Origin: Escherichia phage vB_EcoS-UDF157lw
Reading direction: 5' to 3' (one strand)
Length of the DNA stretch: 46,604 nt
Sequence record: OQ243221
Position numbers and translations under genes: made by a program
Shown: positions 10,530-25,787 of the stretch, in pieces
How positions within the stretch are numbered: the stretch's first letter is position 1
Layout: each line of letters begins with the position of its first letter
Notes under the pieces: model-generated
What the model was told of the DNA's origin: nothing
Seen by the model: only the letters and a program-made list of their open reading frames with translations
The model's database searches: none

Positions 10530-12074
10530 ATGGCTTTAGAGTTTATGGAAGTTGTAGCTAAGACTTATGGCGACCTGGAGAGGCTAGTAAAGGCAAAAAT
10601 GCTAGAAGGATGGATGCCATTTGATAGCTTAATTGACAATAGATTTACTATCGCAATTGTTATGGTTAAGGGTAGTGATGCGCAGCTTACCGACTTTAGG
10701 ATTCTCGGTGATAGCACTAGAGTTAAATTAATAAGCAAGGCTAACAAATTAATTGCTGATGACCCTGAGTGGGAGGTTTTCGGTCACCCTCAAATATTTG
10801 GCGCTGACGATTACATAGTTTCATTATCAAAAGGCTTTAAGGGAACTACTGGTAGGGATGGCATGGCTGGCCCGCAAGGACCGCAAGGACCGCGCGGCGA
10901 AGTTGGCCCAGAAGGTCCGCAGGGTCCAAGGGGTGACGATGGCGCTGATGGGGAAAAGGGTGAGCGTGGAGCAGTAGGCCCGCAAGGACCAATTGGCCCA
11001 CAGGGTATTCAGGGTCCACAGGGAGTTCAAGGGCCAGCTGGATTAAAGGGCGATAAAGGTGATAAGGGTGATGTTGGCCCACAGGGACCACAAGGATTAA
11101 AAGGTGATACTGGAGAGAAAGGCGACCCTGGAGAAGTTGGCCCTGCTGGTTTAACATTCCGTGGTCAGTGGGTTCCTGGCACTGGTTATACAAAAGACGA
11201 TACCGTAGTTTATAACGGATCAACTTACTTTGCGGTTAATGATATTGCAGCTGATGAGGAGCCAGGTGTATCACCTTTGTGGGTGGTTCTTGCCGCTCAA
11301 GGCACGAAAGGTGACAAGGGTGATAAAGGCGACCCTGGAGATATCGGACCTCAAGGGGAGAAGGGTGATACTGGACCTCAAGGTCCGAGAGGTATTCAGG
11401 GTCCGCAAGGTATTCAGGGGTTAACAGGTGAGCAAGGTCCGCAAGGTGAGCAGGGGCCGCAAGGGATTGTTGGGCCGACTGGACCGCAAGGGCCAAAAGG
11501 TGACACCGGACCTCAAGGTATTCAAGGGCCGCAAGGCATCAGGGGACTTACTGGGCCGATAGGACCACAGGGACCGCAGGGAGAGAAGGGCGAAAAGGGA
11601 GATAAAGGGGAAAAAGGCGAAACTGGTGCAACCGGACCACAGGGTCCAGCGGGTCAAAATAATACAAATAATCCAGTTTATACAACTCAACTTACCGTAT
11701 CTACAAGCTACTCAGCTATAGCCATACCAAATAACCCTGGTGTATCTTTTACAATCAGGAGGGTTGGTAATAACATTGAGTACTCTTTTACAGGCAACTC
11801 AATTCCAGGAAGGTATTTTGATGTTGAGGTTGTAAACTTTCCATCAGCTGACGTAGTTAAAAGATACCAGTCAAATCAGACAATTTCAGGTACAAATAGG
11901 TATGTTGTAGGTGATCCTGCTGGTTATACTGGCGGTGGATACAAAAGGATTCAATTCTCAGCTAGAGATTGGGGGGATAAAAACATTATAATGATTGATG
12001 TTTTTCACCTTCAGCGCCCAACTGATACTAGTTTTAGCATCGCAATTAGGATTGAGACATTCAAGCTGCCATAA
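10530..12074 (+). CDS. Collagen-like repeat protein with embedded carbohydrate-binding-like motif (514 aa); putative fibre/decoration
   Basis: Two blocks of uninterrupted Gly-X-Y triplets (about residues 110-205 and 265-385) separated by [26 protein letters not shown]...PLWVV, which resembles CBM5/12 chitin-binding-type motifs; distinct N- and C-terminal globular domains. Confidence 0.85.
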
Positions 12075-12089
12075 GATTAAAGGTCGCCA

Positions 12090-12117
12090 TTGCGCGGTCT
12101 TAAAACTCGTGTATAAT
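12090..12117 (+). promoter_or_regulatory. Candidate sigma70 promoter upstream of major capsid gene (TTGCGC, 16 nt, TATAAT)
   Basis: Perfect TATAAT at 12112-12117 with TG immediately upstream; TTGCGC at 12090-12095. Confidence 0.45.
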
Positions 12118-12153
12118 GTCAACGTACACTGTTAACCAAAAGGATAAATAGGA

Positions 12154-13098
12154 ATGACTATTAAGCTAGATGCTTTCGAGCAGAACAAAATCACCGAACA
12201 CCTGCGTAACATGGGTGTTGAAAAAGCTGATGCAGCTGGCATTTGGACCATCAAACAGCTGACTCAGACGCTTAACCGTAACTACGATCGCGAATATTCT
12301 GAAACATCTGTAGTTAACCTGTTCCCGGTCACTAACGAAATTGGCGCTTACGCTAAATACTTCGAATACGGCGAAATGGATGGTGTTGGCTTAGCTCAGA
12401 TTGTAGCTGATTATTCAGATGATTTGCCGCTGGTTGATGCACTGATGCAAGAGAAGCAAGGTAAGGTGTTCCGTTTTGGTAATGCATTCCTGGTTTCCAT
12501 CGATGAGATTGCGGCTGGCGCAGCTACTGGTCAATCACTGTCTTCTCGCAAGCAGGCTCTTGCATTCGAAGCTCATGACAACCTGCTTGATAAGCTGGTT
12601 TGGAAAGGCTCCGCACCTCACGGCATTAAGTCTGTATTCGATTACGACAACGTAAACCAGGTAGTTCCAAGCGGCGCATGGACTACAGCACAGACTGCTT
12701 ACGCTGACGTTAATAGCCTGCTGGATATTATCGAAACAGCAACCCAAGGCATCCATCGAGCTAACAGGCTGCTTCTTCCGGCATCCGCTCGTCGAGTAAT
12801 GCAAACTCTGGTCCCGAATACTGGTATTAGCTACTTTGAGTTCTTTGCCCGTAACAACAATGGCGTACAGGTGGAGTTCCTGCAACTCCTTGACAACTAC
12901 GATGGCGCAAACGGCAAGGCTGCAATTGCTTATGAGTACGACCCATTGAACATGAGCATTGAGATTCCAGAAGCTACTCACGTCCTTCCAGCTCAACCGA
13001 AGGATTTGCACTTCAAGTTTCCTGTAACCTCCAAGTCTACTGGCCTGATTATCTACCGACCTCTGACCGTTGCAGTAATGAAAGGTATCACCTTCTAA
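12154..13098 (+). CDS. Major capsid protein (314 aa)
   Basis: Size, position after scaffold, dedicated promoter and strong downstream terminator (high-expression signature). Confidence 0.7.
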   Translation: MTIKLDAFEQNKITEHLRNMGVEKADAAGIWTIKQLTQTLNRNYDREYSETSVVNLFPVTNEIGAYAKYFEYGEMDGVGLAQIVADYSDDLPLVDALMQEKQGKVFRFGNAFLVSIDEIAAGAATGQSLSSRKQALAFEAHDNLLDKLVWKGSAPHGIKSVFDYDNVNQVVPSGAWTTAQTAYADVNSLLDIIETATQGIHRANRLLLPASARRVMQTLVPNTGISYFEFFARNNNGVQVEFLQLLDNYDGANGKAAIAYEYDPLNMSIEIPEATHVLPAQPKDLHFKFPVTSKSTGLIIYRPLTVAVMKGITF

Positions 13099-13104
13099 TA
13101 AATA

Positions 13105-13126
13105 GCCCTCTTCGGAGGGCTTTTTT
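13105..13126 (+). terminator. Rho-independent terminator after major capsid gene
   Basis: GCCCTC-ttcg-GAGGGC hairpin followed by TTTTTT. Confidence 0.75.
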
Positions 13127-13188
13127 ACGTCTGTACTAAATGAATCATAAAGTATATAATTCATTTATAGACTAAACAGGAGGAAAGA

Positions 13189-13437
13189 ATGATTAAGTTA
13201 GAACACGTTGGTGCTTGCCTTATTCGATTTGCTGGAAATGATTACCTGCCAGGACAAATCATTGAAGTAGAAGAGTTGAATGACGGTTTTAAGCGATTGA
13301 TTGCTGAGGGTCGACTTGAGGTAATGGAAGACCGCAAGGCAACCAAGAAAGTAATTGAAGAAATTGAAAGCAAGAAGGTTAAAAAGAAAGAACCAAAGAC
13401 TGTAGACGAAGCTGAAAACGGCGGCGAGTACAAGTAA
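13189..13437 (+). CDS. Hypothetical protein (82 aa), Lys-rich C-terminus; isolated transcription unit
   Basis: RBS aggagga; flanked by terminators on both sides; upstream inverted repeat AAATGAAT...ATTCATTT spanning a TATAAT. Confidence 0.5.
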   Translation: MIKLEHVGACLIRFAGNDYLPGQIIEVEELNDGFKRLIAEGRLEVMEDRKATKKVIEEIESKKVKKKEPKTVDEAENGGEYK

Positions 13438-13444
13438 CCAACAC

Positions 13445-13468
13445 GGACGCTTTAGAGCGTCCTTTTTT
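13445..13468 (+). terminator. Rho-independent terminator
   Basis: GGACGCT-ttag-AGCGTCC hairpin followed by TTTTTT. Confidence 0.7.
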
Positions 13469-13483
13469 GTATGGAGATATAAA

Positions 13484-13885
13484 ATGAATGAAGAAGTAAT
13501 CGCATATATAAGGCAGCTGTACCCCCCACTTAACAACCAGCCGGATGATGTTCTTAACGCATGGATTGAGGTGGCGAAGCTTTTTATCTGCTTAGGCAAG
13601 TTTGGTGACAAGCAGGTTCAGGCACTGGCATTCTACACTCTTCACTTGCTTAGCCAGGATATTGCACTCAAGACTGAGAATGATTCAAGCCAGACATCAT
13701 CTGAGCGGGTTAAGTCCTACTCACTTTCAGGCGAGTACACGATTAGCTACGATACAAGCACTGCCGCAGCTAGCTCATCAAACCTTGAGGAATCCTCATG
13801 GGGTAAGCTTTACATTGATTTGATGCGTCGCAAGGTTGGCCGCTGGGGCTTGATTACCTCTGGTGGGTCGAGGTGCTGCCGATGA
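13484..13885 (+). CDS. Putative head-tail connector / head completion protein (133 aa)
   Basis: Position between capsid and tail genes; overlaps next gene. Positional inference. Confidence 0.45.
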   Translation: MNEEVIAYIRQLYPPLNNQPDDVLNAWIEVAKLFICLGKFGDKQVQALAFYTLHLLSQDIALKTENDSSQTSSERVKSYSLSGEYTISYDTSTAAASSSNLEESSWGKLYIDLMRRKVGRWGLITSGGSRCCR

Positions 13886-14250
13886 ATCATGCACTTTTGC
13901 AGCAGCAAATTAAGGCTGGTATTAATCTCCTGTCAGATGGTGATGGAGTTTTCGAAGCTACGACACAGCCAGCCATCTCTATCGTTAATGGCTATGAAGT
14001 GCGCACACCAGGCACTTCCTACACTGTGCGGGGTGTTATTCGTGAATTCAAAGCAAGAGACATTGACGGTGACATCATCAAGTTCGGTGACCGTCGCGGA
14101 ATTTTTACTGCTGATTCAGTTGTATCGGAAGGCGACCGCATCTACATTGACCAGGAAGCCTACACAGTCATTGACCCTAGACCAGTGAAGCCGACCGGAA
14201 CGGTAATCGCCTACAGGCCAGTACTGCGGAGGGCTGCAACATATGGCTAA
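13873..14250 (+). CDS. Putative head-tail joining protein (125 aa)
   Basis: Overlapping ORFs in a connector gene cluster; positional. Confidence 0.45.
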   Translation: MLPMNHALLQQQIKAGINLLSDGDGVFEATTQPAISIVNGYEVRTPGTSYTVRGVIREFKARDIDGDIIKFGDRRGIFTADSVVSEGDRIYIDQEAYTVIDPRPVKPTGTVIAYRPVLRRAATYG

Positions 14251-14671
14251 TGATAACCTGCTATTCAAGCTAAAGATTAATGATTGGGCCGATTCAGTAA
14301 TGGAGGCGATTCCTGAGATTATTGATGATGCCCTTGATAACGCAGCTAGGGATATCGTTAAGTTGTCTCCTGTTGATACTGGAAGGTTTAGAGGTAACTG
14401 GCAAGCTACAGGAAACAGGCCATCACTGATTGGTTTGAACAACTATGACAAGGATGGGGCTGATACAATTAAGTCACTAAGAAGGCAAATCCACGCTCTA
14501 GCTAGAGATAAGGCTACGCATACAATCTATATCACCAATGCGCTAACGTATGCGGTACCATTGGAGTTCGGTTATTCTGGTCAGGCACCAAACGGGGTAC
14601 TTGGTATCGTCACTAAGAGGCTTGGTTTTTACTTTAATGACGCTATAAGGAAAAAGTCCAATGCACTATGA
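14243..14671 (+). CDS. Putative tail completion / neck protein (142 aa)
   Basis: Positional; overlapping starts and stops typical of neck genes. Confidence 0.45.
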   Translation: MANDNLLFKLKINDWADSVMEAIPEIIDDALDNAARDIVKLSPVDTGRFRGNWQATGNRPSLIGLNNYDKDGADTIKSLRRQIHALARDKATHTIYITNALTYAVPLEFGYSGQAPNGVLGIVTKRLGFYFNDAIRKKSNAL

Positions 14672-15059
14672 AATGATGGTTTCAGCAAGAAAGCTGGTTA
14701 GCGATGCGGCAGTTGATATTGCCGGCGGAGTTCCAGTGGCTTATGAGAACTGCGGATTCACCCCACCCAAAAACGGAAGTTTATGGTTGAAGTTTGATTA
14801 CACGGAGGTTGATAGTGTGACATGGGGATTGCAGCGAACATGCAGGTATTACGTAGGCATGGTTCAGGTCTCTATATTCTTTTCACCAGGTGAGGGGACT
14901 GATAGACCTCGCCAATTGGCTGGGCGATTGTCAGAAGCTTTCGCCGATGGTACAATGCTTGACAGCGGATACATTTATGAAGGCGGATCCGTATTTCCTC
15001 CAGTGAAATCGCAATCCGGCTGGTTCATTCCTGTCCGATTCTACGTACGTATGGATTAA
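14661..15059 (+). CDS. Putative tail terminator protein (132 aa)
   Basis: Positional, immediately upstream of major tail protein. Confidence 0.4.
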   Translation: MHYEMMVSARKLVSDAAVDIAGGVPVAYENCGFTPPKNGSLWLKFDYTEVDSVTWGLQRTCRYYVGMVQVSIFFSPGEGTDRPRQLAGRLSEAFADGTMLDSGYIYEGGSVFPPVKSQSGWFIPVRFYVRMD

Positions 15060-15073
15060 TTAAGGAGATTTAC

Positions 15074-15724
15074 ATGGCCCATCTCAGCAATGGCACACAA
15101 ATTTTTTTGCAAGGCTCTAAATCTGAATCGGTAGCCGTAACGGCTATCACTAACGCAGCTCAGCCAGTTATGACGGTAGCTGACGCTTCAATTTTCGCAG
15201 CTGGTGACTTCATTGTTGTTGAGTCATCTTCATGGTCTAAACTTTCAGAGAAACAGTTGCGAGTAGTTACATCAACGGCTACAACAATTACCGTTGAAGG
15301 CATTGACACTACTGACCCGCTTCAGTTCCCAGCTGGCGGAACGGCATCGATCTACAAGGTTCTTACCTGGTATGAAATGCCTTGTGTTCAAGACGTTTCA
15401 ACTGATGGCGGAGAGCAGCAGTTCGTTACTTATCAGTGCCTGGCTGATGACCGTGAGCAGCAGATTCCAACCTATAAGTCAGCGGTAAACACGACCTATA
15501 CGTTTGCTCACGAGTTCACCAACCCGATCTACCCGGTACTCCGTAACTACGACGAGTCTGGAGCGCTGATTGCGATTCGTGCATACGTTCCTAAAGCTGG
15601 CGAAGTTCGACTTTGGACTGGCACTATCGCGTTTAACGAAACTCCAAACGTTTCCGTTAACGAGATCGAAACTGTATCCGTAGCAATTACGGTGCGTGGA
15701 CGCTATAGCTTCCTGGCTGCATAA
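15074..15724 (+). CDS. Major tail protein (216 aa)
   Basis: Position upstream of chaperones and tape measure; followed by strong terminator. Confidence 0.55.
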   Translation: MAHLSNGTQIFLQGSKSESVAVTAITNAAQPVMTVADASIFAAGDFIVVESSSWSKLSEKQLRVVTSTATTITVEGIDTTDPLQFPAGGTASIYKVLTWYEMPCVQDVSTDGGEQQFVTYQCLADDREQQIPTYKSAVNTTYTFAHEFTNPIYPVLRNYDESGALIAIRAYVPKAGEVRLWTGTIAFNETPNVSVNEIETVSVAITVRGRYSFLAA

Positions 15725-15730
15725 CAATCA

Positions 15731-15754
15731 AGCCCCTTCACAGGGGCTTTTTTT
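15731..15754 (+). terminator. Rho-independent terminator after major tail gene
   Basis: AGCCCCT-tcac-AGGGGCT hairpin followed by TTTTTTT; TTATAAT -10-like element directly after. Confidence 0.7.
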
Positions 15755-15797
15755 ATGTTATAATTTCAACTCAAACAAACATGAGAGGATTATTTAA

Positions 15798-16112
15798 ATG
15801 GCGAAATTCAAATTAAAATTAGGCGCGCTCCCTGATTTCAAGCTTCCGGTTAAGTTCCAGATGATCAACGGCGAGGAAGCTGAGGTTATCTTCAATGCCA
15901 AGCACCGTAAGGCTAAGGAGATTCAGGAAGTATTCCAGACCGAAGGCCTTAAGGATTTTGACTTTGTTAAAGAGATTTGCAGCGGCTGGAACCTTGAAGA
16001 AGAATTTAACGACGAGAACATCGAAGAGCTGGTATCTCTGTTCCCATCATCCGTTCTGGCACTGACTAATGCTTACATGCAAGCTCTGGCGGGCCAGCGC
16101 GCAAAGGTCTAA
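15798..16112 (+). CDS. Tail assembly chaperone (G-like, 104 aa)
   Basis: Acidic small protein between major tail and tape-measure genes. Confidence 0.5.
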   Translation: MAKFKLKLGALPDFKLPVKFQMINGEEAEVIFNAKHRKAKEIQEVFQTEGLKDFDFVKEICSGWNLEEEFNDENIEELVSLFPSSVLALTNAYMQALAGQRAKV

Positions 16113-16174
16113 AGCGCGCTGTATACCTACAATACCAAAGAGAGCCAACGGACTCCGAACTTGAAGCTATTGGA

Positions 16175-16429
16175 ATGCGGCGTTCCGATTACGAAGATGA
16201 GGATCCAGAGGAGTTACACTTCGATGATGACATGATGCTGGCATGGACTATTTATCAGGCGACCTCAACTCAATGGCGTGTAGGTATGAACGGCGCTACC
16301 GGAATAGATTATTCAGTACTCCCTTTCCTCTTTGATGTGTATAATGTCAAGGACAAAGAGATGACTTTAAATGACTTGCGAATACTAGAGTGCAAAGCAC
16401 TTGAGATGATGCAAGTAAGGCAAAAATAA
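16175..16429 (+). CDS. Tail assembly chaperone second ORF (T-like), possibly expressed by -1 frameshift
   Basis: This frame is open from 16070, overlapping the last 43 nt of the G-like ORF in the -1 frame; no canonical slippery heptamer seen. Confidence 0.35.
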   Translation: MRRSDYEDEDPEELHFDDDMMLAWTIYQATSTQWRVGMNGATGIDYSVLPFLFDVYNVKDKEMTLNDLRILECKALEMMQVRQK

Positions 16430-16452
16430 CCTCCCTTTGTGGAGGTTTTTTT
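16430..16452 (+). terminator. Hairpin plus T-run immediately upstream of tape measure gene (attenuator-like)
   Basis: CCTCC-ctttgt-GGAGG followed by TTTTTTT; the downstream GGAGG serves as the tape-measure RBS. Confidence 0.5.
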
Positions 16453-16463
16453 ATGGAGGTTAC

Positions 16464-19400
16464 ATGGCAGAATTTGCAGGTATCACACTTGGCGTTGACG
16501 TTCGCCAGGTTGACCAGGGCACAAAGTCCCTGCAAGAATTTAAACGTGCCAATGAACAGGCGGCAGCTGGAGTTAGCGAGTTCGTTAATGCTGAGCTGGT
16601 TGCGAAGAATCAGGCTCGCGACACTGCAAGGTATCTTTCTGAGCAGAGAAGTGCTTTTCAGTCGCTTCAGTCTGCAATTGATCCAACAGCTTCAAAATTG
16701 CGAAAACTTCAAGATGCAGCAAGTTCTCTTGATAAGGCCTTCTCCGCAGGGGTTGTTCCAGAGGCTGAGTTTTACAGGCTTGGTGAAGCATTAGAAACGC
16801 AAACAAATAGGTTAATAAGGTCTAGGTCAGCATTAACTGAGGAGGGTAGGGCGGCTATAGAAGCTGCAAAAAATAAAGAGTCCGCTGAGAGGCAAGCGCA
16901 ATCATTTATTAGGTCGCTTCAAGCGCAGGCTGATGCAGCGACATTAAGTAGGGATGAGTTCTTAAAGTTAAGGGCGGCACGGCTTGGAGTTAGCGATCAG
17001 GCAGCACCAATAATAGATAGAATAACACAGGCATCAAGTAACAATACTAACGCTATAGCAAATCAAAGTAGGGCGTTTCAGGCGGCTGGGATATCGGCAG
17101 GTCAGTACAATCAGGCCTTAAGGTTCCTTCCTGTACAGATCAATGATATCACTAGCTCGATTGCTAACGGTATGCCTTTATTTATGGTGCTTACCCAGCA
17201 AATACCGCAGATTACAGATTCATTTGGTGGATTTTCAAATACATTATCAGCTGCGCAAGGTGCAGTTATAGATTATGTATCATCAATAGGAGAGCTGAGA
17301 AGTTCATTTGCTGATGTTAGGACTCTTGGTGATGAGGCTATCTTAAGGTTTGGTCGTGCTGCAACTATATTTGGTGGCGCGATAATTGCTTCATTAGCTG
17401 TTCTTGGTAAAGCCGCTTACGACTCATTTATTGAGGTTAGGCAACTTAATAACGCAATAATTGAAACTGGAAGGTCGTCGACTTTATCAGTTGCCGCTAT
17501 CAAGGATTACGCTGATCAGCTAAATGAAACATCAAGGGCAACAAAAGGTTCTATTGGTGACATTTACCAGTCGCTAGTATCAAACGGAAGGCTTACTGTT
17601 AGTCAGATTAACTTAATCGCTAAGTCTGTTGCTAACCTTTCAGCTGTTAGTTCAAGGTCTGCGGAATCAATAATATCTGACTTTGATAAGATAGCAAAAG
17701 ATCCAGTTAAGGGGCTGATAGAGTTAGATAAGCAATTTAACTTTCTTAGCGAAGGGCAGTTGACCCTAGTTAACAACCTAAAAGAAACGGAAGGGCAAAC
17801 AGCAGCAGTAACAGCAGCTTTAGAAATATTTGCAGCTAGAAATGAGTCAGTTACAAAGCAGATTGAAGGCTCGCTTACACCTCTTGAATTGGCTTGGGGC
17901 GATTTCCGTAAGTTCGTTTCAGACACATGGGATGCTATAGGTGACAGGACTATAGGAGCTCTAAACCTATTTACTGACGTTATAGCTGCGACTATTGAGC
18001 AAATAAGACTGATAATTGGCACTGGCGACAAGCTAATAAATGATTTCGTAATACGCGGAATAGAGGCTTTACAAAAGATACCAGGAGCATCTGGCGTTGG
18101 TAATGGAATAGCCGAACAACTAAGGAAGGATAATGACGCAATAGAAAAGGAAAACATAAGGCTAGCTAAATCTATCGCTGATAGGGATGCAAGGGTTCGC
18201 AGGGGCGAGACTGGTTACTTGAGTGTTGGAGAGGGTTCAGAAAGTCAAACTGGAACTTCTGATAGAGATTCAGAATCAAGAAGAAAGGCTTTGGCCGATG
18301 AGATTAAAGCAATTGAGGAGAGAAGTAAAAAGACAAAATCTGGAGCAAAAGAAGAGAGGGATTTGACTATAAGTTATGAGTCTGGCGTTCTAGCTCTTCA
18401 GGCTCAGCTTAAGGTTCTTCAGGAGCACCGCCAGATTAGTGATGTTATCAGTAACGAACGCAAGCAGCTTTTTGCGGAGGAAGCTAAGTTTGCAATCCTT
18501 AATGAAAGGCTTGCAGACGGAACCATCACAAAGCAACAGCGATCATTACTGTTGCAGCAGGATAAAATCTTAGGACTTGCTCGCGAGAAGGCTGAGATTG
18601 GCGACCAGATTGTGCTGCAAGAAAGGGCCAATAAACTTCTTGATGACAACATCAAGAAGAATCGGCAGATTAACGCTGAAGCGGCATCAATTAGTGTTGG
18701 AGCAGGATTATCTCAGCGCGAAGCGGAAAGGCGGCGTGAGTTGGCGGCGCTAGAAGCCCAGCAAATTTCTAAAGGTGGCTCCGTAGATGACACTGACTTC
18801 CAGGCTTTACTTCAGGCTCGTCAGAATTTCTACAATCAGGAAGATGCATTACGTGGTAACTGGCTGGCTGGCGTTAAATCTGCGTTTGCTGAGACGGCTG
18901 ATGAATTGGCAAACTTTAATCAGATTGGTTCCGAGCTAGCCATGAGTGCCTTTAACGGATTGACTGACCAGATAACAAACCTGGTAACTACTGGAGAAGC
19001 TAGCTTCCGTGAGTTTACCGCATCGATTCTGAAGCAGATTGCACGCATTGCAACGCAGCTACTTTTAATTAAGGCGATTGAATCAACCATCTCCAGTTTT
19101 GGCGGTAGTGGTGGTGCAATTGGCTCTATTGGTAGCGCATTTGGTTTCGCTTCTGGCGGTTATACTGGAAACGGTGGTAAGTACGAGCCAGCTGGCACGG
19201 TGCATAAAGGTGAATTCGTCTTTACGAAGGAGGCAACCTCAAGGATTGGCGTTGATAACCTTTATAAGTTAATGCGCGGATACGCAAATGGTGGAGTGGT
19301 TGGTGCTGGTCCTGGCTATGCGACTGGCGGGCTTGTTGGTGGAAGTAACGTTAATGTTGGTGGAGTGAATGTTACCGTTCAGACAGGTCTTGGCGGTGGT

Positions 19401-19517
19401 GGCGGTAATGACGCTAAACAGTTAGAATCTGGTATCAGGGTTATCATCGCGGAAGAGATTACTCAGTCCTTCCAGCAGGGCGGAACGGCTTACCAGTTCT
19501 TGCGAGGTTATAGTTAA
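16464..19517 (+). CDS. Tail tape measure protein (1017 aa from ATG 16464)
   Basis: Length, alpha-helical Ala/Gln/Glu-rich composition, Gly-rich C-terminal region; position after chaperones. The track start 16437 is TTG; ATG 16464 follows GGAGG. Confidence 0.85.
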   Translation: MAEFAGITLGVDVRQVDQGTKSLQEFKRANEQAAAGVSEFVNAELVAKNQARDTARYLSEQRSAFQSLQSAIDPTASKLRKLQDAASSLDKAFSAGVVPEAEFYRLGEALETQTNRLIRSRSALTEEGRAAIEAAKNKESAERQAQSFIRSLQAQADAATLSRDEFLKLRAARLGVSDQAAPIIDRITQASSNNTNAIANQSRAFQAAGISAGQYNQALRFLPVQINDITSSIANGMPLFMVLTQQIPQITDSFGGFSNTLSAAQGAVIDYVSSIGELRSSFADVRTLGDEAILRFGRAATIFGGAIIASLAVLGKAAYDSFIEVRQLNNAIIETGRSSTLSVAAIKDYADQLNETSRATKGSIGDIYQSLVSNGRLTVSQINLIAKSVANLSAVSSRSAESIISDFDKIAKDPVKGLIELDKQFNFLSEGQLTLVNNLKETEGQTAAVTAALEIFAARNESVTKQIEGSLTPLELAWGDFRKFVSDTWDAIGDRTIGALNLFTDVIAATIEQIRLIIGTGDKLINDFVIRGIEALQKIPGASGVGNGIAEQLRKDNDAIEKENIRLAKSIADRDARVRRGETGYLSVGEGSESQTGTSDRDSESRRKALADEIKAIEERSKKTKSGAKEERDLTISYESGVLALQAQLKVLQEHRQISDVISNERKQLFAEEAKFAILNERLADGTITKQQRSLLLQQDKILGLAREKAEIGDQIVLQERANKLLDDNIKKNRQINAEAASISVGAGLSQREAERRRELAALEAQQISKGGSVDDTDFQALLQARQNFYNQEDALRGNWLAGVKSAFAETADELANFNQIGSELAMSAFNGLTDQITNLVTTGEASFREFTASILKQIARIATQLLLIKAIESTISSFGGSGGAIGSIGSAFGFASGGYTGNGGKYEPAGTVHKGEFVFTKEATSRIGVDNLYKLMRGYANGGVVGAGPGYATGGLVGGSNVNVGGVNVTVQTGLGGGGGNDAKQLESGIRVIIAEEITQSFQQGGTAYQFLRGYS

Positions 19518-19548
19518 TAAATGGGGCTTCGGCCCCTAAGGATTTTAA

Positions 19549-19899
19549 ATGGCATTAGATACTTTTACATGGTGTACCCAAATTCAAGGTGGATCAGCAA
19601 ACTTTACTAACGCGAATAACGTTAGGGTTGTCAGCTTTGGTAATGGCTACGAGCAAAGAGGTACTGGAGGATACAGGGCCAACAAGCGAACGTACAACAT
19701 GACATACACCAACAATGACTGGAGAGATGTTCTTGAATTCTGCTTCGCGCACATCATTACACCTTTCGCATGGACCACACCGCAGGGTGAGCTTAAGCTG
19801 TTTGTTGTAGCTCAAGATAGCATTAGCGTCACGCCAAATACCAAGGAAGTTCAGACCGTATCAATGCAATTTACTGAGGTTTTCACATCTATGCAGTAA
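19549..19899 (+). CDS. Minor tail protein (lambda M-like, 116 aa)
   Basis: First gene after tape measure in a lambda-like M-L-K-I-J order. Confidence 0.55.
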   Translation: MALDTFTWCTQIQGGSANFTNANNVRVVSFGNGYEQRGTGGYRANKRTYNMTYTNNDWRDVLEFCFAHIITPFAWTTPQGELKLFVVAQDSISVTPNTKEVQTVSMQFTEVFTSMQ

Positions 19900-19900
19900 A

Positions 19901-19943
19901 TAGCACTAATTGCTAAACAGAAATACCAAGGAAGGTTTACAAT
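19901..19943 (+). promoter_or_regulatory. Composite promoter-like element: TAGCACtaaTTGCTAAA, 22 nt, TACAAT
   Basis: Motif begins at the stop codon of the M-like gene; precedes the inserted 71-aa ORF. Confidence 0.5.
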
Positions 19944-19971
19944 TAAAAAACTTAAACAAGAGGTGATTGAT

Positions 19972-20187
19972 ATGAAAATTAATTTGCTTTGCACAAATGC
20001 TGAAGTTGGTGTCTTTGATTTAAATGTTGGTCAAACTTATGTGGCATACTTCAATGATGATTATGGTCATTATGAACTTTCTGATGAAGGTTTTTCTTAT
20101 GAGTTAAGCGAGGTTAGAGGTGCTCCTTTGACTTTCTACTGTAAATCTTTTAGTGGTGGATTGGTGACATTCATTAAAGTAAACTAA
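19972..20187 (+). CDS. Hypothetical protein (71 aa) in a moron-like insertion
   Basis: Own promoter element upstream and own terminator downstream, inserted between M-like and L-like tail genes; RBS agaggtg. Confidence 0.5.
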   Translation: MKINLLCTNAEVGVFDLNVGQTYVAYFNDDYGHYELSDEGFSYELSEVRGAPLTFYCKSFSGGLVTFIKVN

Positions 20188-20207
20188 GACCCTACGGGGT
20201 CTTTTTA
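20188..20207 (+). terminator. Rho-independent terminator
   Basis: GACCC-tac-GGGGTC hairpin followed by TTTTTATT. Confidence 0.65.
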
Positions 20208-20220
20208 TTGGAGAAATATT

Positions 20221-20985
20221 ATGGCTACGCCATTGAGCACTAAGTTTGAGAATCAATTACAAAGCTTGTTCCCTGGTGAGGTTGTCACGTTGATTGAGGT
20301 TGACGGAGGAAAGTTTGGTGCACCAGTTTACCGATTTCATGGGGAGAATATCAGCTATACCCCAGAAGAAATCATGATGGCACAATCAACAGGCCAGCCA
20401 CTACCAGCAAAGACAATTACCTTCCGTGGGCAAGAGTACGGAGCAAGGCCTTTCGGTATTCAGGGGATCAATATGACCTCTGATGGCAAGGCAAATAAGG
20501 TGACTCTAGTCGTATCCAACGTAGACCAGAATATATCTGCGCTTATCCGCACTTACAATGGACTTGTTCAGGCCAAAGTTACTATCTGGATCACCCTCCG
20601 CGAGAATATTAACGAAGATGGCACCATTGCTGATGGGGATTACCGCAAGCTGGTTTACTTCATTGAGCGACCTAAGCAGGTTGATTACAATACAGCCTCA
20701 TTTGAAATAACTAGCCCAATGGATATGGATGGTATTTACATTCCAGCGCGACTTGTTCAGTCTGTTTGTTATTGGGCACAGCGAGGGCTTTACCGATCAG
20801 GCAATGGATGTAACTACATGGGTACTCGATATTTCGATAAGGACAACGCGCCTGTGACTGACCCATCGCAAGACTTCTGTGCCGGAACGGTTCGTGCGTG
20901 CAAGCTAAGGTTCGGAGAAAATAATCAGTTAGACTTTGGTGGTTGCGCTGCTGCAAGCCTGCAAGCTAAAGCCAACCAAAACTAA
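20221..20985 (+). CDS. Minor tail protein (lambda L-like, 254 aa)
   Basis: Position plus C-terminal conserved cysteines (CYWAQ...GNGCNYMG...CAGTVRACK...GGCAA), consistent with the Fe-S-binding region of L-like proteins. Confidence 0.65.
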   Translation: MATPLSTKFENQLQSLFPGEVVTLIEVDGGKFGAPVYRFHGENISYTPEEIMMAQSTGQPLPAKTITFRGQEYGARPFGIQGINMTSDGKANKVTLVVSNVDQNISALIRTYNGLVQAKVTIWITLRENINEDGTIADGDYRKLVYFIERPKQVDYNTASFEITSPMDMDGIYIPARLVQSVCYWAQRGLYRSGNGCNYMGTRYFDKDNAPVTDPSQDFCAGTVRACKLRFGENNQLDFGGCAAASLQAKANQN

Positions 20986-20994
20986 GGAGAGGTA

Positions 20995-21741
20995 ATGTTA
21001 ACGCCTAAAGTTAAGATCGAAATATTTCGCCACGCCAACGAGGTTTACCCGCAAGAATCTTGCGGGGTTGTAACTCAGAAGGGGATGGCGCAGAAGTATC
21101 ACAGGATTACCAACGTATCCAAAACACCAGAGCAATCATTCATTCTCGACCCAATGGAATTCATGGAGATTTCGGACAATGAAAGCGTTGTTTATGTTGT
21201 ACATTCACATACTGGTGATGGCGCTACTACTAGGCCAAGCGCAGCTGATATTTGCAGCTGCAATGAGTGCGAGCTGCCTTATGTTATTGTTTCTATACCT
21301 GAAGGGGACTTGCGGATTATTCAGCCAGAAAAGATGCCGCTTGCTGGTCGCCCATGGGGTCTTGGCAGCTTCGACTGCTGGGGTTTGGTTATGGAATTTC
21401 ACAAGCTACACGGTGTTAAGCTTAACGATTATCGCGTAGATTATCAGTGGTGGACCAATGAATACCCTGACAATATCTACGATGATAATTGGGAGTTAGA
21501 AGGGTTCGAATTAGTCAGAAGCAATGATATTCCAATTGGCTCAATGGTTATGATGCAGATTCAGAGCGAGAAGACCAACCACGCCGCCATATACATTGGT
21601 GAAAATAAAATCCTACACCATTTATATGGTAAGATGAGTAAGGTTGATTTGTACGGCGATTACTATCGTGAGCGGACTGTACGAATCGTAAGGCATAAAG
21701 ATTTACCGGAGGATGCTGGTTATGACCCAGAACGTGATTGA
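20995..21741 (+). CDS. Tail assembly protein (lambda K-like; MPN/JAMM plus NlpC/P60 domains, 248 aa)
   Basis: JAMM-like motif VVHSHTGDGATTRPSAAD and Cys/His hydrolase signature (GSFDCWGLV ... H); lambda-like position. Confidence 0.8.
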   Translation: MLTPKVKIEIFRHANEVYPQESCGVVTQKGMAQKYHRITNVSKTPEQSFILDPMEFMEISDNESVVYVVHSHTGDGATTRPSAADICSCNECELPYVIVSIPEGDLRIIQPEKMPLAGRPWGLGSFDCWGLVMEFHKLHGVKLNDYRVDYQWWTNEYPDNIYDDNWELEGFELVRSNDIPIGSMVMMQIQSEKTNHAAIYIGENKILHHLYGKMSKVDLYGDYYRERTVRIVRHKDLPEDAGYDPERD

Positions 21742-22288
21742 TGTTAAGCTGGGATTAGGCTTAGGCAGGAAGTTTGGAAAGCTACATAAACTGTGCGTTA
21801 AGACAGTTCCAGAGGCAATGCGAGCTCTCTCTGTAAACATCCCTGAATTTAAGGAATTCATGCGTAGCCATGTGGGCCAGAACACAAGGTTTGCTGTATT
21901 CGTTGACGGTAAGAATGTTAACGAGCACAAGATTAATGACCTTAAGACTGTACGTGAAATTAGGATTATGCCAATCCCGCAAGGTCGAAAATCTGGCGGC
22001 TTATTCCAGACCATCCTTGGAGGTGTACTTTTGGTGGCATCATACTTCTTTCCTGTTCTTTTGCCAGTGGCTGTAGGCCTTCTTGCTGGTGGTGTAGCTC
22101 AGTTATTGGCACCACAAGCGACAGGATTGAATGACCAGGCATCACAAACAAGCAACCGAGCATCATACGCATTCGGCTCAGCAGTAAACACCATTGCTGC
22201 TGGCAACCCCGTTTGCTTACCTTATGGATATCGAACTGTTGGTGGTGCTGTGTTTAGTGCAGGCTCGTATGCAGAAGACATTAGTTAA
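21722..22288 (+). CDS. Tail assembly protein (lambda I-like, 188 aa)
   Basis: Position between K-like and J-like; hydrophobic Gly/Ala/Leu-rich C-terminal segment; start moved to ATG 21722 after GGAGG. Confidence 0.6.
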   Translation: MTQNVIDVKLGLGLGRKFGKLHKLCVKTVPEAMRALSVNIPEFKEFMRSHVGQNTRFAVFVDGKNVNEHKINDLKTVREIRIMPIPQGRKSGGLFQTILGGVLLVASYFFPVLLPVAVGLLAGGVAQLLAPQATGLNDQASQTSNRASYAFGSAVNTIAAGNPVCLPYGYRTVGGAVFSAGSYAEDIS

Positions 22289-22295
22289 AATCACA

Positions 22296-22318
22296 ACCCG
22301 CCTAGTGCGGGTTTTTTA
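22296..22318 (+). terminator. Hairpin plus T-run upstream of J-like gene
   Basis: ACCCGC-ctagt-GCGGGT followed by TTTTTTATT. Confidence 0.6.
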
Positions 22319-22368
22319 TTTAGTGTAGAATGGCACAAATGGTTAAACAAACAACGAGGTTATATGAT

Positions 22369-25300: not shown

Positions 25301-25755
25301 AGCTAGGCCTTAAGTACAATGGGGTTGAGTATGGCGCTGGTATGAGCATGGAGTTAACAGGTAGCGGCGGTAATGTTCGCAGTCAGTTCATTTTCGATGC
25401 TAACAGGTTCGCAATCAGCAACGGCATTAGCTCTGGTTCAGGTCAGTGGTCGCTGCCTTTCGTTGTGGAGAATAACCAGGTGTTCATTCAGAGCGCGGTG
25501 ATTCAGGATGGTTCAATTACTAACGCGAAGATTGGTAACAGGATTCAATCAAACAACTATGTTGCTGGTAGTGCTGGTTGGGCAATTGATAAATCTGGTT
25601 TTGCTGAGTTAAGTAACGCTACCGTTCGCGGTAGTTTGTACGCTAACAATGGTAACTTCGCGTTTAACGGAACCAACAATACTGTCGTAATAAACAATAA
25701 CGGCATAACTGTTAATTTACCAAATGGAGGTAGGGTAGTGGTTGGAGTATGGTAA
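22369..25755 (+). CDS. Central tail fibre / host specificity protein (lambda J-like, about 1128 aa)
   Basis: Length and position; N-terminus ...KGGSKKPHTPVEQEDNL resembles J-type N-termini; start moved to ATG 22369 with GAGG RBS. Confidence 0.85.
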   Translation: MADLPKIYGSKGGSKKPHTPVEQEDNLISLNKIKVLLAVADGEVDSSFSLKDVYLADVPVQNQDNSFNYEGVTAEFRAGTQSQDYIAGLDGAASEIQVSREINNDTPYIIAVNNSQLSAIRVKLFWPRLVKQEENGDLNGTTCEYAIDLSVNGAAYTEYTRGVANGKTTTGYDRSIRVNLPAEFSSALVRIRKLTPDSTSSTLVNGMQITTYQEVIDAKFRYPLTALVYVEFSSDLFPNGIPTIAIKKKWKLIRVPTNYNPETRTYSGAWDGTFKMAWSDNPAWVLYDLVVSQRYGLDQRELGVEIDKWGLYEAAQFCDQMVPDGKGGMEPRYTCNVVIQQKVEAYQLIRDICSIFRGLTFYDGEQIGIVVDRPRQPSYVFTNDNVVDGLFNRTFSSDKSLYTTANVQFDDEQNNYQQDVEPVFDLEATRRFGYNPVDLTAIGCVRRSEANRRGRWLLKTNLRSETVTFTTGLEGMIPMIGDVIAVNDQAWSSNYTLNLSGRIVEATGLQVFVPFAIDADPGDRILINKPDGSPEYRTIASVSADKLTLELNTAFSFTPQPDTVFAIDKQNLALQQYVVTGIQKANTDGEDSFQYSITAVQYDPNKYDEIDYGVNIDDRPTSIVDPDRILPPENITVTSYSKVVQGLSVETMVIGYDKVQYAKTYNVQWRKNNGNWINVPETANTEVDIEGIYAGIYDVRVRAVTDQKSVSAWSDITTVSLTGKIGEPSAPPVITASDDEVFGIRVKWGFPTDSADTAYTELHQVPDNGDGTYNPESASLLTLVPYPQYEYWHTTLPAGNVRWYRARIIDRIGNVSPWTDFVRGMASDDVSAIIGDIKVDIENSDGYKYLLQNAIDANTDIQNQAEAIIENALANDTDVRVMKRENGARKAEYRQAVSLIADETQARVDALTQLKAQIDDEIVGQITTIETALATETEARATADTQLSARLGDNEAALNQKLDSYATVEGVGVQYGVKLGLKYNGVEYGAGMSMELTGSGGNVRSQFIFDANRFAISNGISSGSGQWSLPFVVENNQVFIQSAVIQDGSITNAKIGNRIQSNNYVAGSAGWAIDKSGFAELSNATVRGSLYANNGNFAFNGTNNTVVINNNGITVNLPNGGRVVVGVW

Positions 25756-25762
25756 ATGATTA

Positions 25763-25787
25763 AGCCCCTTTCGGGGCTTTTTCTTTT
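25763..25787. terminator. Bidirectional terminator between J and the convergent leftward pair
   Basis: AGCCCC-tttc-GGGGCT hairpin followed by TTTTTCTTTT on the plus strand. Confidence 0.65.

What the first reader, a model, noticed from the sequence alone, without database searches (positions are those of the whole stretch)
16070..16452. Possible -1 frameshift chaperone pair and a hairpin attenuator directly before the tape measure gene
The second chaperone ORF frame is open from 16070, overlapping the last 43 nt of the G-like gene in the -1 frame, as in G/GT chaperones, but no canonical XXXYYYZ slippery heptamer is present (nearest is GCAAAGG). A CCTCC/GGAGG hairpin plus T-run sits immediately before the tape-measure RBS.
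Basis: partly seen in the sequence, partly recalled or inferred. Interest (0 to 1): 0.35.

Follow-up and report, generated by a model that had tools for sequence, protein, structure and literature searches.

The report
Tail chaperone frameshift plus terminator
This is the ordinary pair of tail-assembly chaperone genes of a T1-like (Rogue1-type) coliphage, in which the second protein is almost certainly made by a rare backward slip of the ribosome at a non-standard slip site, followed by a conserved transcription terminator just before the tape-measure gene; the idea was already published for a near-identical phage.

Summary
The window is a Rogunavirus (Drexlerviridae), 99.4% identical to phage Rogue1 over 15000-17000.

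- **Genes:** ORF 15798-16112 is a Phage_TAC_4 tail assembly chaperone ("G"). The -1 frame, open from 16070 to the stop at 16427-16429, carries DUF1799 ("T").
- **Slip site:** There is no X_XXY_YYZ heptamer. A_AAG_GTC (16103-16109) sits where almost every sampled relative has A_AAA_AAC or G_GGA_AAC next to the G stop.
- **Evidence for a frameshift:** T is in the -1 frame in 82/82 related loci. The 62 nt between the G stop and ATG 16175 evolve as -1 frame coding sequence, with 10/11 variable sites at codon position 3. That ATG has no Shine-Dalgarno sequence and is Leu in most genera. The conceptual 210-aa fusion matches phrog_17368 end to end.
- **Efficiency:** In published E. coli reporters the A_AAG tetramer is no weaker than A_AAA_AAC.
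- **Hairpin:** 16428-16447 plus U7 is a plain intrinsic terminator. One follows the T stop in 17/17 sampled Drexlerviridae, with differing stems. No antiterminator alternative was found.
- **Novelty:** Kropinski et al. 2012 already proposed a G-T fusion without the classical site for Rogue1. TLS and Skenny records annotate the join.

The feature is real, ordinary and essentially known. A minor twist is that AAC changed to GTY twice independently.

The parts
15730..15756 (+). Intrinsic terminator after the tail tube gene (stem-loop 15730-15749 plus U-run)
   Evidence: Scan. Folding energy -13 kcal/mol, z = -4.0. Annotated as a terminator in AKS96, AHP42 and Skenny.
15737..15764 (+). Sigma-70-like promoter (TTCACA-16-TATAAT with TG extended -10) overlapping the terminator, upstream of G
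   Evidence: Best promoter-like match in 12000-26000, 11/12. Annotated as a promoter in Rogue1, AKS96 and AHP42. A consensus match only.
15798..16112 (+). G-like tail assembly chaperone ORF (104 aa), Pfam Phage_TAC_4
   Evidence: PF08748 E = 4.8e-37. phrog_569 and phrog_17368. SD GAGAGGA, dG -5.8.
16070..16112 (+). Overlap in which the -1 (T) frame is already open; the frameshift must occur here
   Evidence: In relatives the overlap shrinks to as little as 7 nt, which confines the shift to the heptamer.
16103..16109 (+). Proposed slip site A_AAG_GTC (core tetramer A_AAG 16103-16106), followed by the G stop TAA at 16110-16112
   Evidence: Positional homologue of A_AAA_AAC or G_GGA_AAC in relatives. 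A_AAG is the most shift-prone tetramer in E. coli.
16095..16121 (+). Palindrome CAGCGCGC / GCGCGCTG whose 11-nt loop holds the slip site and the G stop; role unknown
   Evidence: Folding energy -15.1 kcal/mol, z = -2.5. Only 6 bp in most Rogunavirinae and absent in other genera.
16113..16174 (+). Linker: -1 frame coding sequence (..KRAVYLQYQREPTDSELEAIG) upstream of the annotated ATG, reachable only by frameshifting
   Evidence: 10 of 11 variable sites at -1 frame codon position 3, and 9 of 11 synonymous. This is the most conserved part of T across genera. No start codon.
16106..16429 (+). T segment of the GT fusion in the -1 frame (107 aa plus stop), containing DUF1799 at about 16169-16411
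   Evidence: PF08809 E = 1.9e-13. The 210-aa fusion matches phrog_17368 positions 1-213 in one stretch, E = 8.8e-86.
16175..16177 (+). ATG used as the T start in GenBank and RefSeq records of relatives; probably an internal Met codon
   Evidence: Anti-SD dG -0.2, against -5.4 to -10.3 for real starts. Leu in most genera.
16428..16452 (+). Intrinsic terminator (stem AACCTCC/GGAGGTT, loop CTTTGT, U7) that starts inside the T stop codon
   Evidence: Conserved in 17/17 Drexlerviridae with different stems. Annotated in AKS96, AHP42 and Skenny.
16455..16466 (+). SD GGAGG (16455-16459) and ATG (16464-16466) of the tape measure gene (16464-19517)
   Evidence: dG -10.0. TMP_2 and Tape_meas_lam_C domains. 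Same start as annotated in relatives.

Best explanation
The region is the tail assembly chaperone module of a Rogue1-like T1-family siphophage.

**Translation.** Most ribosomes translate G (15798-16112, 104 aa) and stop at TAA 16110. A small fraction slip back one base while tRNA-Lys reads AAG at 16104-16106 and re-pairs with AAA at 16103-16105. They continue in the -1 frame through 16106-16426 and make a 210-aa G-T fusion, ...AGQRAK-GLKRAVYLQYQ...RQK. By analogy with lambda G/GT, G and GT coat the tape measure protein, and the T part recruits the tube protein.

**The slip site.** It is a degenerate descendant of the family-wide heptamer A_AAA_AAC and now works as a Z_ZZN tetramer with single-tRNA slippage. 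No RNA stimulator could be demonstrated.

**Transcription.** Immediately after the T stop, a conserved intrinsic terminator (16428-16452) ends a short promoter-G/GT unit. Only read-through transcripts carry the tape measure and distal tail genes, which would keep these low-copy proteins below tube and chaperone levels.

**Shown here:** frame geometry, homology, coding constraint, lack of an independent start, and conservation of the terminator structure.

**Inferred:** that slippage happens at A_AAG, its frequency, the protein functions, and that the hairpin terminates transcription partially.
For: **Identity.** 99.4% to Rogue1. G is Phage_TAC_4, T is DUF1799, flanked by the tube gene (Phage_tail_3) and the TMP gene.

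**Geometry.** T is -1 relative to G, and the G stop lies inside the open T frame, in 82/82 loci from IMG/VR plus Skenny and in 16 further Drexlerviridae.

**Slip-site homology.**
- Relatives carry A_AAA_AAC or G_GGA_AAC in the last 2-3 codons of G.
- The closest canonical relative, Sd1, is 89% identical in T.
- In IMG/VR, 70 contigs have A_AAA_AAC_TAA and 42 have A_AAR_GTY_TAA.

**Translation of the linker.**
- The -1 frame translation starting at the slip site, K[K/G/S]LKRAVYL.YQ..PTD, is the best-conserved part of T.
- Within Rogunavirinae, 10 of 11 variable linker sites are at -1 frame position 3 and 9 of 11 are synonymous there, against 1 and 0 in the other two frames.
- The Webervirus clade with A_AAA_GTY shows the same pattern.

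**No independent start.** There is no ATG/GTG/TTG in the -1 frame before 16175. ATG 16175 has no SD (dG -0.2) and is Leu in most genera.

**Fusion.** It matches phrog_17368 at 1-210 against 1-213/213, E = 8.8e-86. TLS tfmS and Skenny gp39 are annotated as joined frameshift products (PMC6763657).

**Slipperiness (Sharma et al. 2014).** AAAG gives 0.178% without and 5.64% with a pseudoknot. AAAAAAC gives 0.163%, 0.189% and 0.739%.

**Terminator.**, and annotations.
Against: - No canonical heptamer is present, and in-frame A_AAG occurs 18 times in 13 structural ORFs, so the motif itself is not distinctive.
- No stimulatory structure is supported. The downstream fold has z = +0.7. The family consensus structure is -0.5 kcal/mol. 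The only long helix is kept in 2/13 Rogunavirinae.
- The upstream SD-like UGGCGGG is weak (-5.3) and not conserved.
- Without a stimulator, reporter values for A_AAG are only about 0.18%. That is far below the few percent I recall for lambda GT (from memory; not looked up here).
- No experimental data (mass spectrometry, ribosome profiling) for GT exist for any Rogunavirus. Rogue1 virion proteomics covered only three bands.
- All Rogunavirinae records checked annotate two separate CDS.
- Termination efficiency is unknown.
Confidence: 0.8

Rival explanations
1. There are two separate proteins. In this clade the heptamer has decayed, and T (84 aa) is now translated on its own from ATG 16175, as GenBank and RefSeq records annotate.
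For: An ATG exists at 16175, and Rogue1, AKS96, C119, Opt-79, Jk06 and AHP42 annotate a CDS from it. The canonical heptamer is absent.
Against: - ATG 16175 has essentially no SD (dG -0.2; 79% of all ATGs in the region do as well or better).
- The same Met also occurs in Braunvirinae, which keep the canonical heptamer, and is Leu elsewhere.
- The 62 nt upstream of the ATG are under -1 frame purifying selection within the very clade that lacks the heptamer.
- The conserved KRAVYLQYQ segment would be lost from such a product.
Confidence: 0.06
2. A GT fusion is made, but not by tRNA-Lys slippage on A_AAG. The shift would occur elsewhere in the 43-nt overlap (for example G_GGC at 16091-16094) or by a stop-adjacent event with tRNA-Val on GUC and UAA in the A site.
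For: - The -1 frame is open for 43 nt, so the window alone does not fix the site.
- G_GGC is a second Z_ZZN tetramer (reading).
- The 0-frame stop lies directly after the heptamer, or one codon after it, in the sampled relatives.
- AAC changed to GTY twice.
- GTC is the rarest Val codon in the structural genes, 14 of 213.
Against: - G_GGC is not shift-prone in E. coli: 0.137% and 0.047%.
- tRNA-Val cannot re-pair on GGU (inference from codon-anticodon rules).
- In relatives with a 7-16-nt overlap the shift is confined to the heptamer position.
- The -1 frame protein conservation begins exactly there.
Confidence: 0.1
3. The hairpin at 16428-16447 is not mainly a terminator. It could be a 3'-end stabiliser or processing site, or a translational element that sequesters the SD-like GGAGG in front of the out-of-frame ATG 16453.
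For: The 3' arm is GGAGG, placed 7 nt before ATG 16453 (dG -10.0). Intercistronic hairpins commonly stabilise upstream mRNA (general knowledge).
Against: - It has the full terminator anatomy: a GC-containing 7-bp stem plus U7.
- The equivalent hairpins in other genera have stems without GGAGG (GCGCC, CCCGC, GCCGCC) but always a U-tract.
- The 16453 ORF is not conserved; it is cut to 14 codons in TR2 (my reading of the TR2 sequence).
Confidence: 0.1

Closest known systems
Phage lambda gpG / gpGT tail assembly chaperones (programmed -1 frameshift at G_GGA_AAG; Levin et al. 1993; Xu, Hendrix and Duda 2004, 2013)
   Same: Two overlapping ORFs lie between the tube gene and the tape measure gene. 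The second is in the -1 frame without its own start. The slip is at the very end of G. No RNA stimulator is required in lambda (from memory), and none was found here. The rest of the tail module is also lambda-like, with M, L, K and I homologues downstream (PMC3496638).
   Different: The protein families differ: Phage_TAC_4 and DUF1799 were the only Pfam hits, and none was to lambda's own G and T families. The slip site is the tetramer-type A_AAG_GTC instead of a two-tRNA heptamer. A terminator sits between T and the TMP gene.
T1-family (Drexlerviridae) chaperones: TLS TfmA/TfmS and Klebsiella phage Skenny gp38/gp39, annotated as frameshift products
   Same: They share the Pfam and PHROG families, the same gene order, the slip at the same position next to the G stop, and a terminator right after the T stop.
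   Different: TLS and most genera use A_AAA_AAC. Skenny uses A_AAA_GTT. The window uses A_AAG_GTC.
Phage Rogue1 genes 30/31 (Kropinski et al. 2012, PMC3496638)
   Same: Essentially the same sequence (99.4%). That paper already states that gene 30 lacks the classical lambda site but may form a G-T-type fusion with gp31.
   Different: The paper invokes a downstream pseudoknot, which I could not substantiate. It does not name the slip site or show the coding constraint. The GenBank record keeps two CDS.
Z_ZZN tetramer -1 frameshift sites (A_AAG in IS3-family elements; Sharma et al. 2014, PMC4066793)
   Same: A_AAG in the 0 frame, decoded by the single E. coli tRNA-Lys, with cognate re-pairing on AAA.
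   Different: Those sites normally depend on a downstream pseudoknot or hairpin, or an upstream SD. No such element is supported here.

Membership tests
G/GT-type tail assembly chaperone with programmed -1 frameshift (lambda paradigm) | Two ORFs located between the major tail (tube) gene and the tape measure gene | tested here: met
   Tube gene 15074-15724 (Phage_tail_3), G 15798-16112, T frame 16070-16429, TMP 16464-19517.
G/GT-type tail assembly chaperone with programmed -1 frameshift (lambda paradigm) | Second ORF overlaps the end of the first in the -1 frame and has no start codon or SD of its own | tested here: met
   The -1 frame arrangement holds in 82/82 loci. There is no start codon before 16175. 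ATG 16175 has dG -0.2 and is not conserved.
G/GT-type tail assembly chaperone with programmed -1 frameshift (lambda paradigm) | Canonical slippery heptamer X_XXY_YYZ in the overlap | tested here: not met
   There is none in 16070-16112; only A_AAG_GTC is present. It is met at the homologous position in relatives, as A_AAA_AAC or G_GGA_AAC.
G/GT-type tail assembly chaperone with programmed -1 frameshift (lambda paradigm) | Sequence downstream of the slip site is translated in the -1 frame (purifying selection on the extension) | tested here: met
   10 of 11 variable sites in 16113-16174 are at -1 frame position 3, and 9 of 11 are synonymous. The protein is conserved from the slip site onward.
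G/GT-type tail assembly chaperone with programmed -1 frameshift (lambda paradigm) | A fusion protein is actually produced, at a low fixed ratio to G, and is required for tail assembly | not testable with these tools
   This needs mass spectrometry, western blots and genetics. No data were found for Rogunavirus.
Pfam Phage_TAC_4 (PF08748) + DUF1799 (PF08809) / PHROG 17368 | Scores above the curated Pfam cut-offs, and a collinear match of the fusion to the full PHROG 17368 profile, which spans both parts | tested here: met
   127.4 bits against a cut-off of 21.1, and 50.8 against 26. The fusion matches 1-210 to 1-213/213, E = 8.8e-86.
Lambda's own gpG and gpT sequence families | Detectable sequence match to the Pfam families that hold lambda G and T | tested here: not met
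   hmmscan at E up to 1 returned only Phage_TAC_4 and DUF1799 as meaningful hits. The relationship to lambda is functional and syntenic, not by family assignment.
Rho-independent (intrinsic) terminator | GC-containing stem-loop immediately followed by a U-tract, downstream of a stop codon on the coding strand | tested here: met
   7-bp stem (4 GC), 6-nt loop, U7, starting inside the T stop codon. Folding energy -9.6 kcal/mol, z = -3.0.
Rho-independent (intrinsic) terminator | Structure conserved in relatives despite sequence change | tested here: met
   17/17 Drexlerviridae have a hairpin plus U-tract after the T stop, with at least 5 different stem sequences.
Rho-independent (intrinsic) terminator | Causes transcript 3' ends in vivo or in vitro | not testable with these tools
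   This needs Term-seq or in vitro transcription.
Transcription attenuator (regulated terminator) | Mutually exclusive antiterminator structure or another sensing element | tested here: not met
   The terminator hairpin persists in the MFE and centroid folds of 16340-16470, with no competing pairing. There is no Rfam match.
Z_ZZN tetramer -1 frameshift site (A_AAG type) | A_AAG in the 0 frame, with cognate re-pairing of tRNA-Lys | tested here: met
   GCA AAG at 16101-16106 in the G frame. Motif ranking in E. coli.
Z_ZZN tetramer -1 frameshift site (A_AAG type) | Stimulator: a downstream hairpin or pseudoknot 5-9 nt away, or an upstream SD-like sequence | tested here: inconclusive
   No significant or conserved downstream fold was found. 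A weak SD-like UGGCGGG lies 9-15 nt upstream (dG -5.3) but is not conserved. Pseudoknots cannot be predicted with the tools at hand.

The most novel reading that the evidence does not exclude
Two Drexlerviridae clades independently replaced the family's two-tRNA heptamer A_AAA_AAC with A_AAR_GUY next to the G stop. They are Rogunavirinae (A_AAG_GTC) and most Webervirus (A_AAA_GTT or A_AAA_GTC). Both kept the -1 frame extension under purifying selection. If GT is still made there, these phages depend on single-tRNA-Lys (tetramer-type) slippage with no detectable RNA stimulator. Because only frameshifted ribosomes reach the T stop codon, which abuts the terminator stem, frameshift frequency might also tune read-through into the tape measure gene. 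That would be a frameshift-coupled attenuation. Nothing here tests this last step.
Probability: 0.3. Interest if true: 0.45.

Novelty: already known. Interest (0 to 1): 0.2.

Why it matters
Mostly as an annotation matter. All Rogunavirinae records checked here (including one RefSeq record), and several records from other genera, list two separate small genes named "hypothetical" or, wrongly, "tail length tape measure protein". The evidence indicates one G product and one G-T frameshift fusion.

It also gives a clean natural example showing that a missing XXXYYYZ heptamer does not mean a lost frameshift. The site can be placed by homology, and the derived A_AAG is at least as slippery in E. coli reporters as the ancestral A_AAA_AAC.

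The terminator-flanked promoter-G/GT unit is a plausible way to set the stoichiometry between chaperones, tube protein and tape measure in T1-like phages. None of this changes current understanding of tail assembly.

Tried and rejected
- **Downstream stimulatory hairpin or pseudoknot (claimed for Rogue1 in PMC3496638).**
  - The fold of 16107-16200 has z = +0.7.
  - RNAalifold over 19 phages gives -0.5 kcal/mol with nothing near the slip site.
  - Helix enumeration finds one 9-bp helix (16116-16124 with 16175-16183), kept in only 2/13 Rogunavirinae.
  - Rejected as unsupported. Pseudoknot prediction proper was not available.
- **Upstream SD-like stimulator.** Weak and not conserved.
- **Palindrome 16095-16121 as stimulator.** Its 5' arm would be inside the ribosome at the moment of slippage, and it is clade-specific. 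Left unexplained.
- **Independent initiation at ATG 16175.** Rejected.
- **Non-ATG start or termination-reinitiation in the -1 frame.** No ATG, GTG or TTG lies between 16070 and 16175.
- **Transcriptional slippage.** The longest A-run at the window site is 3.
- **Regulated attenuator with an alternative structure.** None found.
- **Rfam.** Only sub-threshold sRNA-like matches to the tube-gene terminator.
- **PDB sequence search for G and T.** No hits.
- **NCBIfam on the fusion.** No hits.
- **The 2026 Avs paper (PMC13581612).** It mentions tail assembly chaperone isoforms made by frameshifting but says nothing about slip-site variants.
Full report
**What the window is.** The 2-kb stretch 15000-17000 is 99.4% identical to Enterobacteria phage vB_EcoS_Rogue1, and 98-99% to BECP10, phiJLA23, C119, AKS96, phiKP26, AHS24, e4/1c and Jk06. 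All of those with fetched records are Drexlerviridae, Rogunavirinae, Rogunavirus, which are T1-like siphophages. The local gene order is as follows:

- tube protein, 15074-15724 (Phage_tail_3, E = 6e-72)
- a 104-aa ORF, 15798-16112 (Pfam Phage_TAC_4 "phage tail assembly chaperone", E = 5e-37)
- a -1 frame ORF carrying DUF1799 (E = 2e-13)
- the tape measure protein, 16464-19517 (TMP_2 plus Tape_meas_lam_C)
- ORFs in the positions of lambda M, L, K and I, as the Rogue1 paper and the Skenny record assign them

- TAA at 16067-16069 closes the second frame, which is then open from 16070 to TAA 16427-16429.
- It overlaps the last 43 nt of the G-like gene and is -1 relative to it.
- No ATG, GTG or TTG occurs in that frame before ATG 16175.
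- There is no in-frame X_XXY_YYZ heptamer in the G ORF. The only plausible motif is A_AAG within GCA AAG GTC TAA (16101-16112).
- The hairpin AACCTCC-CTTTGT-GGAGGTT (16428-16447), the U7 run (16446-16452), GGAGG (16455-16459) and the TMP ATG (16464) are as described. The hairpin folds at -9.6 kcal/mol, z = -3.0.

**Is T made by frameshifting?** I collected 80 IMG/VR loci with the DUF1799 segment, Klebsiella phage Skenny, and 16 further Drexlerviridae loci from ten named genera. Four results bear on the question.

- **Frame geometry.** In all 82 loci of the first set the T frame is -1 relative to the upstream Phage_TAC_4 ORF, and that ORF's stop lies within the open T frame. The overlap is as short as 7 nt.
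- **Slip-site position.** Aligned at the G stop, almost all relatives carry a canonical heptamer in the last two or three codons of G. This is A_AAA_AAC in most and G_GGA_AAC in two. All other sampled Drexlerviridae genera read [GC/GT]A_AAA_AAC TAA: Christensenvirus, Guelphvirus, Loudonvirus, Hanrivervirus, Tlsvirus, Vilniusvirus, Kyungwonvirus, Tunavirus and Webervirus F20. Shigella phage Sd1, a Rogunavirinae-like phage 89% identical in T, has GCA_AAA_AAC TAA. The window and the other twelve close relatives read GCA_AAG_GTC TAA at exactly that place. So 16103-16109 is the positional homologue of the family's slippery heptamer, now reduced to the tetramer A_AAG.
- **Protein conservation.** The -1 frame translation starting at the slip site is the most conserved part of T across genera: K[K/G/S]LKRAVYL.YQ..PTD.EL...G[L/M]. 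The Met encoded by ATG 16175 is Leu in most genera, and it is also present in Braunvirinae, which keep the canonical heptamer.
- **Coding constraint.** Within the thirteen Rogunavirinae sequences, the 62-nt linker 16113-16174 lies after the G stop and before the annotated ATG. It has 11 variable sites. Ten fall on -1 frame codon position 3 and nine are synonymous in that frame, against one and zero in the other two frames. Dropping Sd1 leaves 9 of 10 at position 3.

ATG 16175 has essentially no Shine-Dalgarno complementarity (dG -0.2 kcal/mol). The real starts with an SD in this operon score -5.4 to -10.3, and 79% of all ATGs in the region score as well or better than 16175.

The conceptual fusion is G residues 1-103 plus the -1 frame from GGT 16106, 210 aa in all. 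It matches phrog_17368 from end to end in one stretch (1-210 against 1-213/213, E = 8.8e-86).

Together these results show that 16113-16174 is translated in the -1 frame and that the only way to reach it is a -1 shift from G. Independent expression of an 84-aa T is very unlikely.

**How slippery is A_AAG?** Sharma et al. 2014 (PMC4066793) measured all tetramers and heptamers in E. coli.

| Motif | No stimulator | IS911 stimulators | IS3 pseudoknot |
|---|---|---|---|
| A_AAG tetramer | 0.178% | not measured | 5.64% |
| A_AAA tetramer | 0.125% | not measured | 0.256% |
| A_AAA_AAC heptamer | 0.163% | 0.189% | 0.739% |

A_AAG is the best tetramer. The ancestral heptamer A_AAA_AAC is described as inefficient in E. 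coli. The derived site is therefore not weaker than the one it replaced.

The likely mechanism is single-tRNA slippage of tRNA-Lys (E. coli has only the UUU-anticodon species) from AAG to AAA. tRNA-Val on GUC cannot re-pair on GGU. Whether slippage occurs in the A site, or in the P site with a slowly filled A site, cannot be said. GTC is the rarest Val codon in the structural genes, 14 of 213, which is only suggestive.

**Stimulators.** None is supported.

- The downstream fold is no better than shuffled sequence.
- RNAalifold on 19 phages finds nothing near the site.
- The one long helix is kept in 2/13 close relatives.
- The SD-like UGGCGGG lies 9-15 nt upstream, is weak, and is not conserved.
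- A clade-specific palindrome, CAGCGCGC/GCGCGCUG (16095-16121, -15.1 kcal/mol, z = -2.5), holds the slip site and the G stop in its loop. Its 5' arm would be inside the ribosome during slippage, so I leave it unexplained.

The "downstream pseudoknot" mentioned for Rogue1 could not be tested properly, because no pseudoknot predictor was available.

**The hairpin before the tape measure gene.** It has the anatomy of an intrinsic terminator. It is one of seven such plus-strand hairpins that directly follow stop codons in this late operon, at 13104, 13445, 15730, 16428, 20186, 22295 and 25762.

- In 17/17 sampled Drexlerviridae the T stop is followed within 0-5 nt by a GC-rich hairpin and a U-tract interrupted by at most one C, then the SD and ATG of the TMP gene.
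- The stems differ (AACCUCC, GCCAUCC, AACCCGC, AGCGCC, GCCGCC), so the structure is conserved rather than the sequence.
- Sister records already annotate it as a rho-independent terminator.
- No competing antiterminator fold appears, so "attenuator" in the regulatory sense is not supported.

A second terminator lies after the tube gene, and a near-consensus extended -10 promoter overlaps it (15737-15764, 11/12 match). With these, G/GT forms a short unit bracketed by terminators. The tape measure and distal tail genes depend on read-through, which plausibly sets their lower dosage (inference).

**Comparison with what is known.** Functionally and syntenically this is the lambda G/GT system. By sequence family it is the Phage_TAC_4/DUF1799 (PHROG 17368) version found in T1-like phages and many enterobacterial prophage-like contigs.

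- The frameshift is annotated as a joined CDS in TLS (tfmS) and Skenny (PMC6763657).
- For Rogue1 itself, Kropinski et al. 2012 wrote that gene 30 lacks the classical lambda site but may form a G-T-type fusion with gp31.
- Non-canonical slip sites in chaperone overlaps are widely acknowledged (PRFect paper).

The finding is therefore already known as a hypothesis. What this analysis adds is the placement of the site by homology, the coding-constraint test within the clade, and the reporter-based argument that A_AAG is adequate.

**Side observation.** Exact-pattern scans of IMG/VR found 42 contigs with GCA_AAR_GTY_TAA and 70 with A_AAA_AAC_TAA in this context. Of the 42, 37 are Webervirus (A_AAA_GTT or A_AAA_GTC) and 5 are Rogunavirinae (A_AAG_GTC). 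Each variant clade has a canonical sister, F20 and Sd1 respectively, so the last G codon changed from AAC (Asn) to GTY (Val) twice. The Webervirus variant clade also keeps the linker under -1 frame constraint: 9 of 11 variable sites at position 3 and 10 of 11 synonymous. Why GTY recurs is unexplained.

**Verdict.** The feature is real and correctly read by the first stage. It is an ordinary, previously proposed feature of a well-known phage group. Interest is low. The main practical value is correcting annotation.

Noticed in passing
window 16103-16112; L004 18433-18442; L104-L145: The canonical A_AAA_AAC heptamer was replaced by A_AAR_GTY (last G codon Asn to Val) in two separate clades. These are Rogunavirinae (A_AAG_GTC) and most Webervirus (A_AAA_GTT or A_AAA_GTC, 37 IMG/VR contigs). 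Each clade has a canonical sister, Sd1 and F20 respectively. The reason for the recurrent GTY is unknown.
   Followed up: partly
window 16095-16121: The palindrome CAGCGCGC...GCGCGCTG (-15.1 kcal/mol, z = -2.5) places the slip site and the G stop codon in an 11-nt loop. It is 8 bp in the window, 6 bp in most Rogunavirinae, and absent in other genera. It may simply reflect Arg-Ala codons in both frames.
   Followed up: partly
window 15730-15764: The terminator after the tube gene overlaps a near-consensus extended -10 promoter (TTCACA-16-TG-T-TATAAT). G/GT may therefore have its own promoter between two terminators. Sub-threshold Rfam sRNA hits (STnc50, 32 bits against a gathering score of 55) on the minus strand here are probably just the hairpin.
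   Followed up: partly
window 16453-16794: An out-of-frame ATG at 16453 sits 7 nt after the GGAGG of the terminator's 3' arm (anti-SD dG -10.0) and opens a 113-aa ORF overlapping the TMP start. An ATG overlapping the TMP SD (ATGGRGG) recurs in many genera, but the ORF is not conserved: it is 14 codons long in TR2. It is probably spurious.
   Followed up: partly
window 13104, 13445, 15730, 16428, 20186, 22295, 25762 (+ strand): A series of terminator-like hairpins directly follows stop codons throughout the late structural operon. They come after the major capsid protein ORF (12154-13098), the tube gene, GT, the gpI-like ORF (21713-22288) and other ORFs. This suggests stepwise down-tuning of transcription along the operon.
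   Followed up: no
window 19963-20187: The 74-aa ORF between the M-like and L-like genes starts at a GTG with no SD (dG +0.5) and is followed by a terminator-like hairpin that overlaps its stop codon. Its start and its reality were not examined. The Rogue1 paper notes an extra 'gene 34' relative to lambda.
   Followed up: no
L095, H58, H59 and similar (GenBank MG0656xx): About 20 records named 'Campylobacter phage' with host C. jejuni are Drexlerviridae (the one fetched is Hanrivervirus) with coliphage-like chaperone loci. They are marked UNVERIFIED and are probably mis-assigned hosts or contaminants.
   Followed up: no
RefSeq/GenBank records of relatives (e.g. NC_019718, L216): RefSeq re-annotation names G, T and TMP all 'tail length tape measure protein', and PHROG descriptions for the chaperone families say the same. 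This is a propagated misnomer for the chaperones.
   Followed up: no
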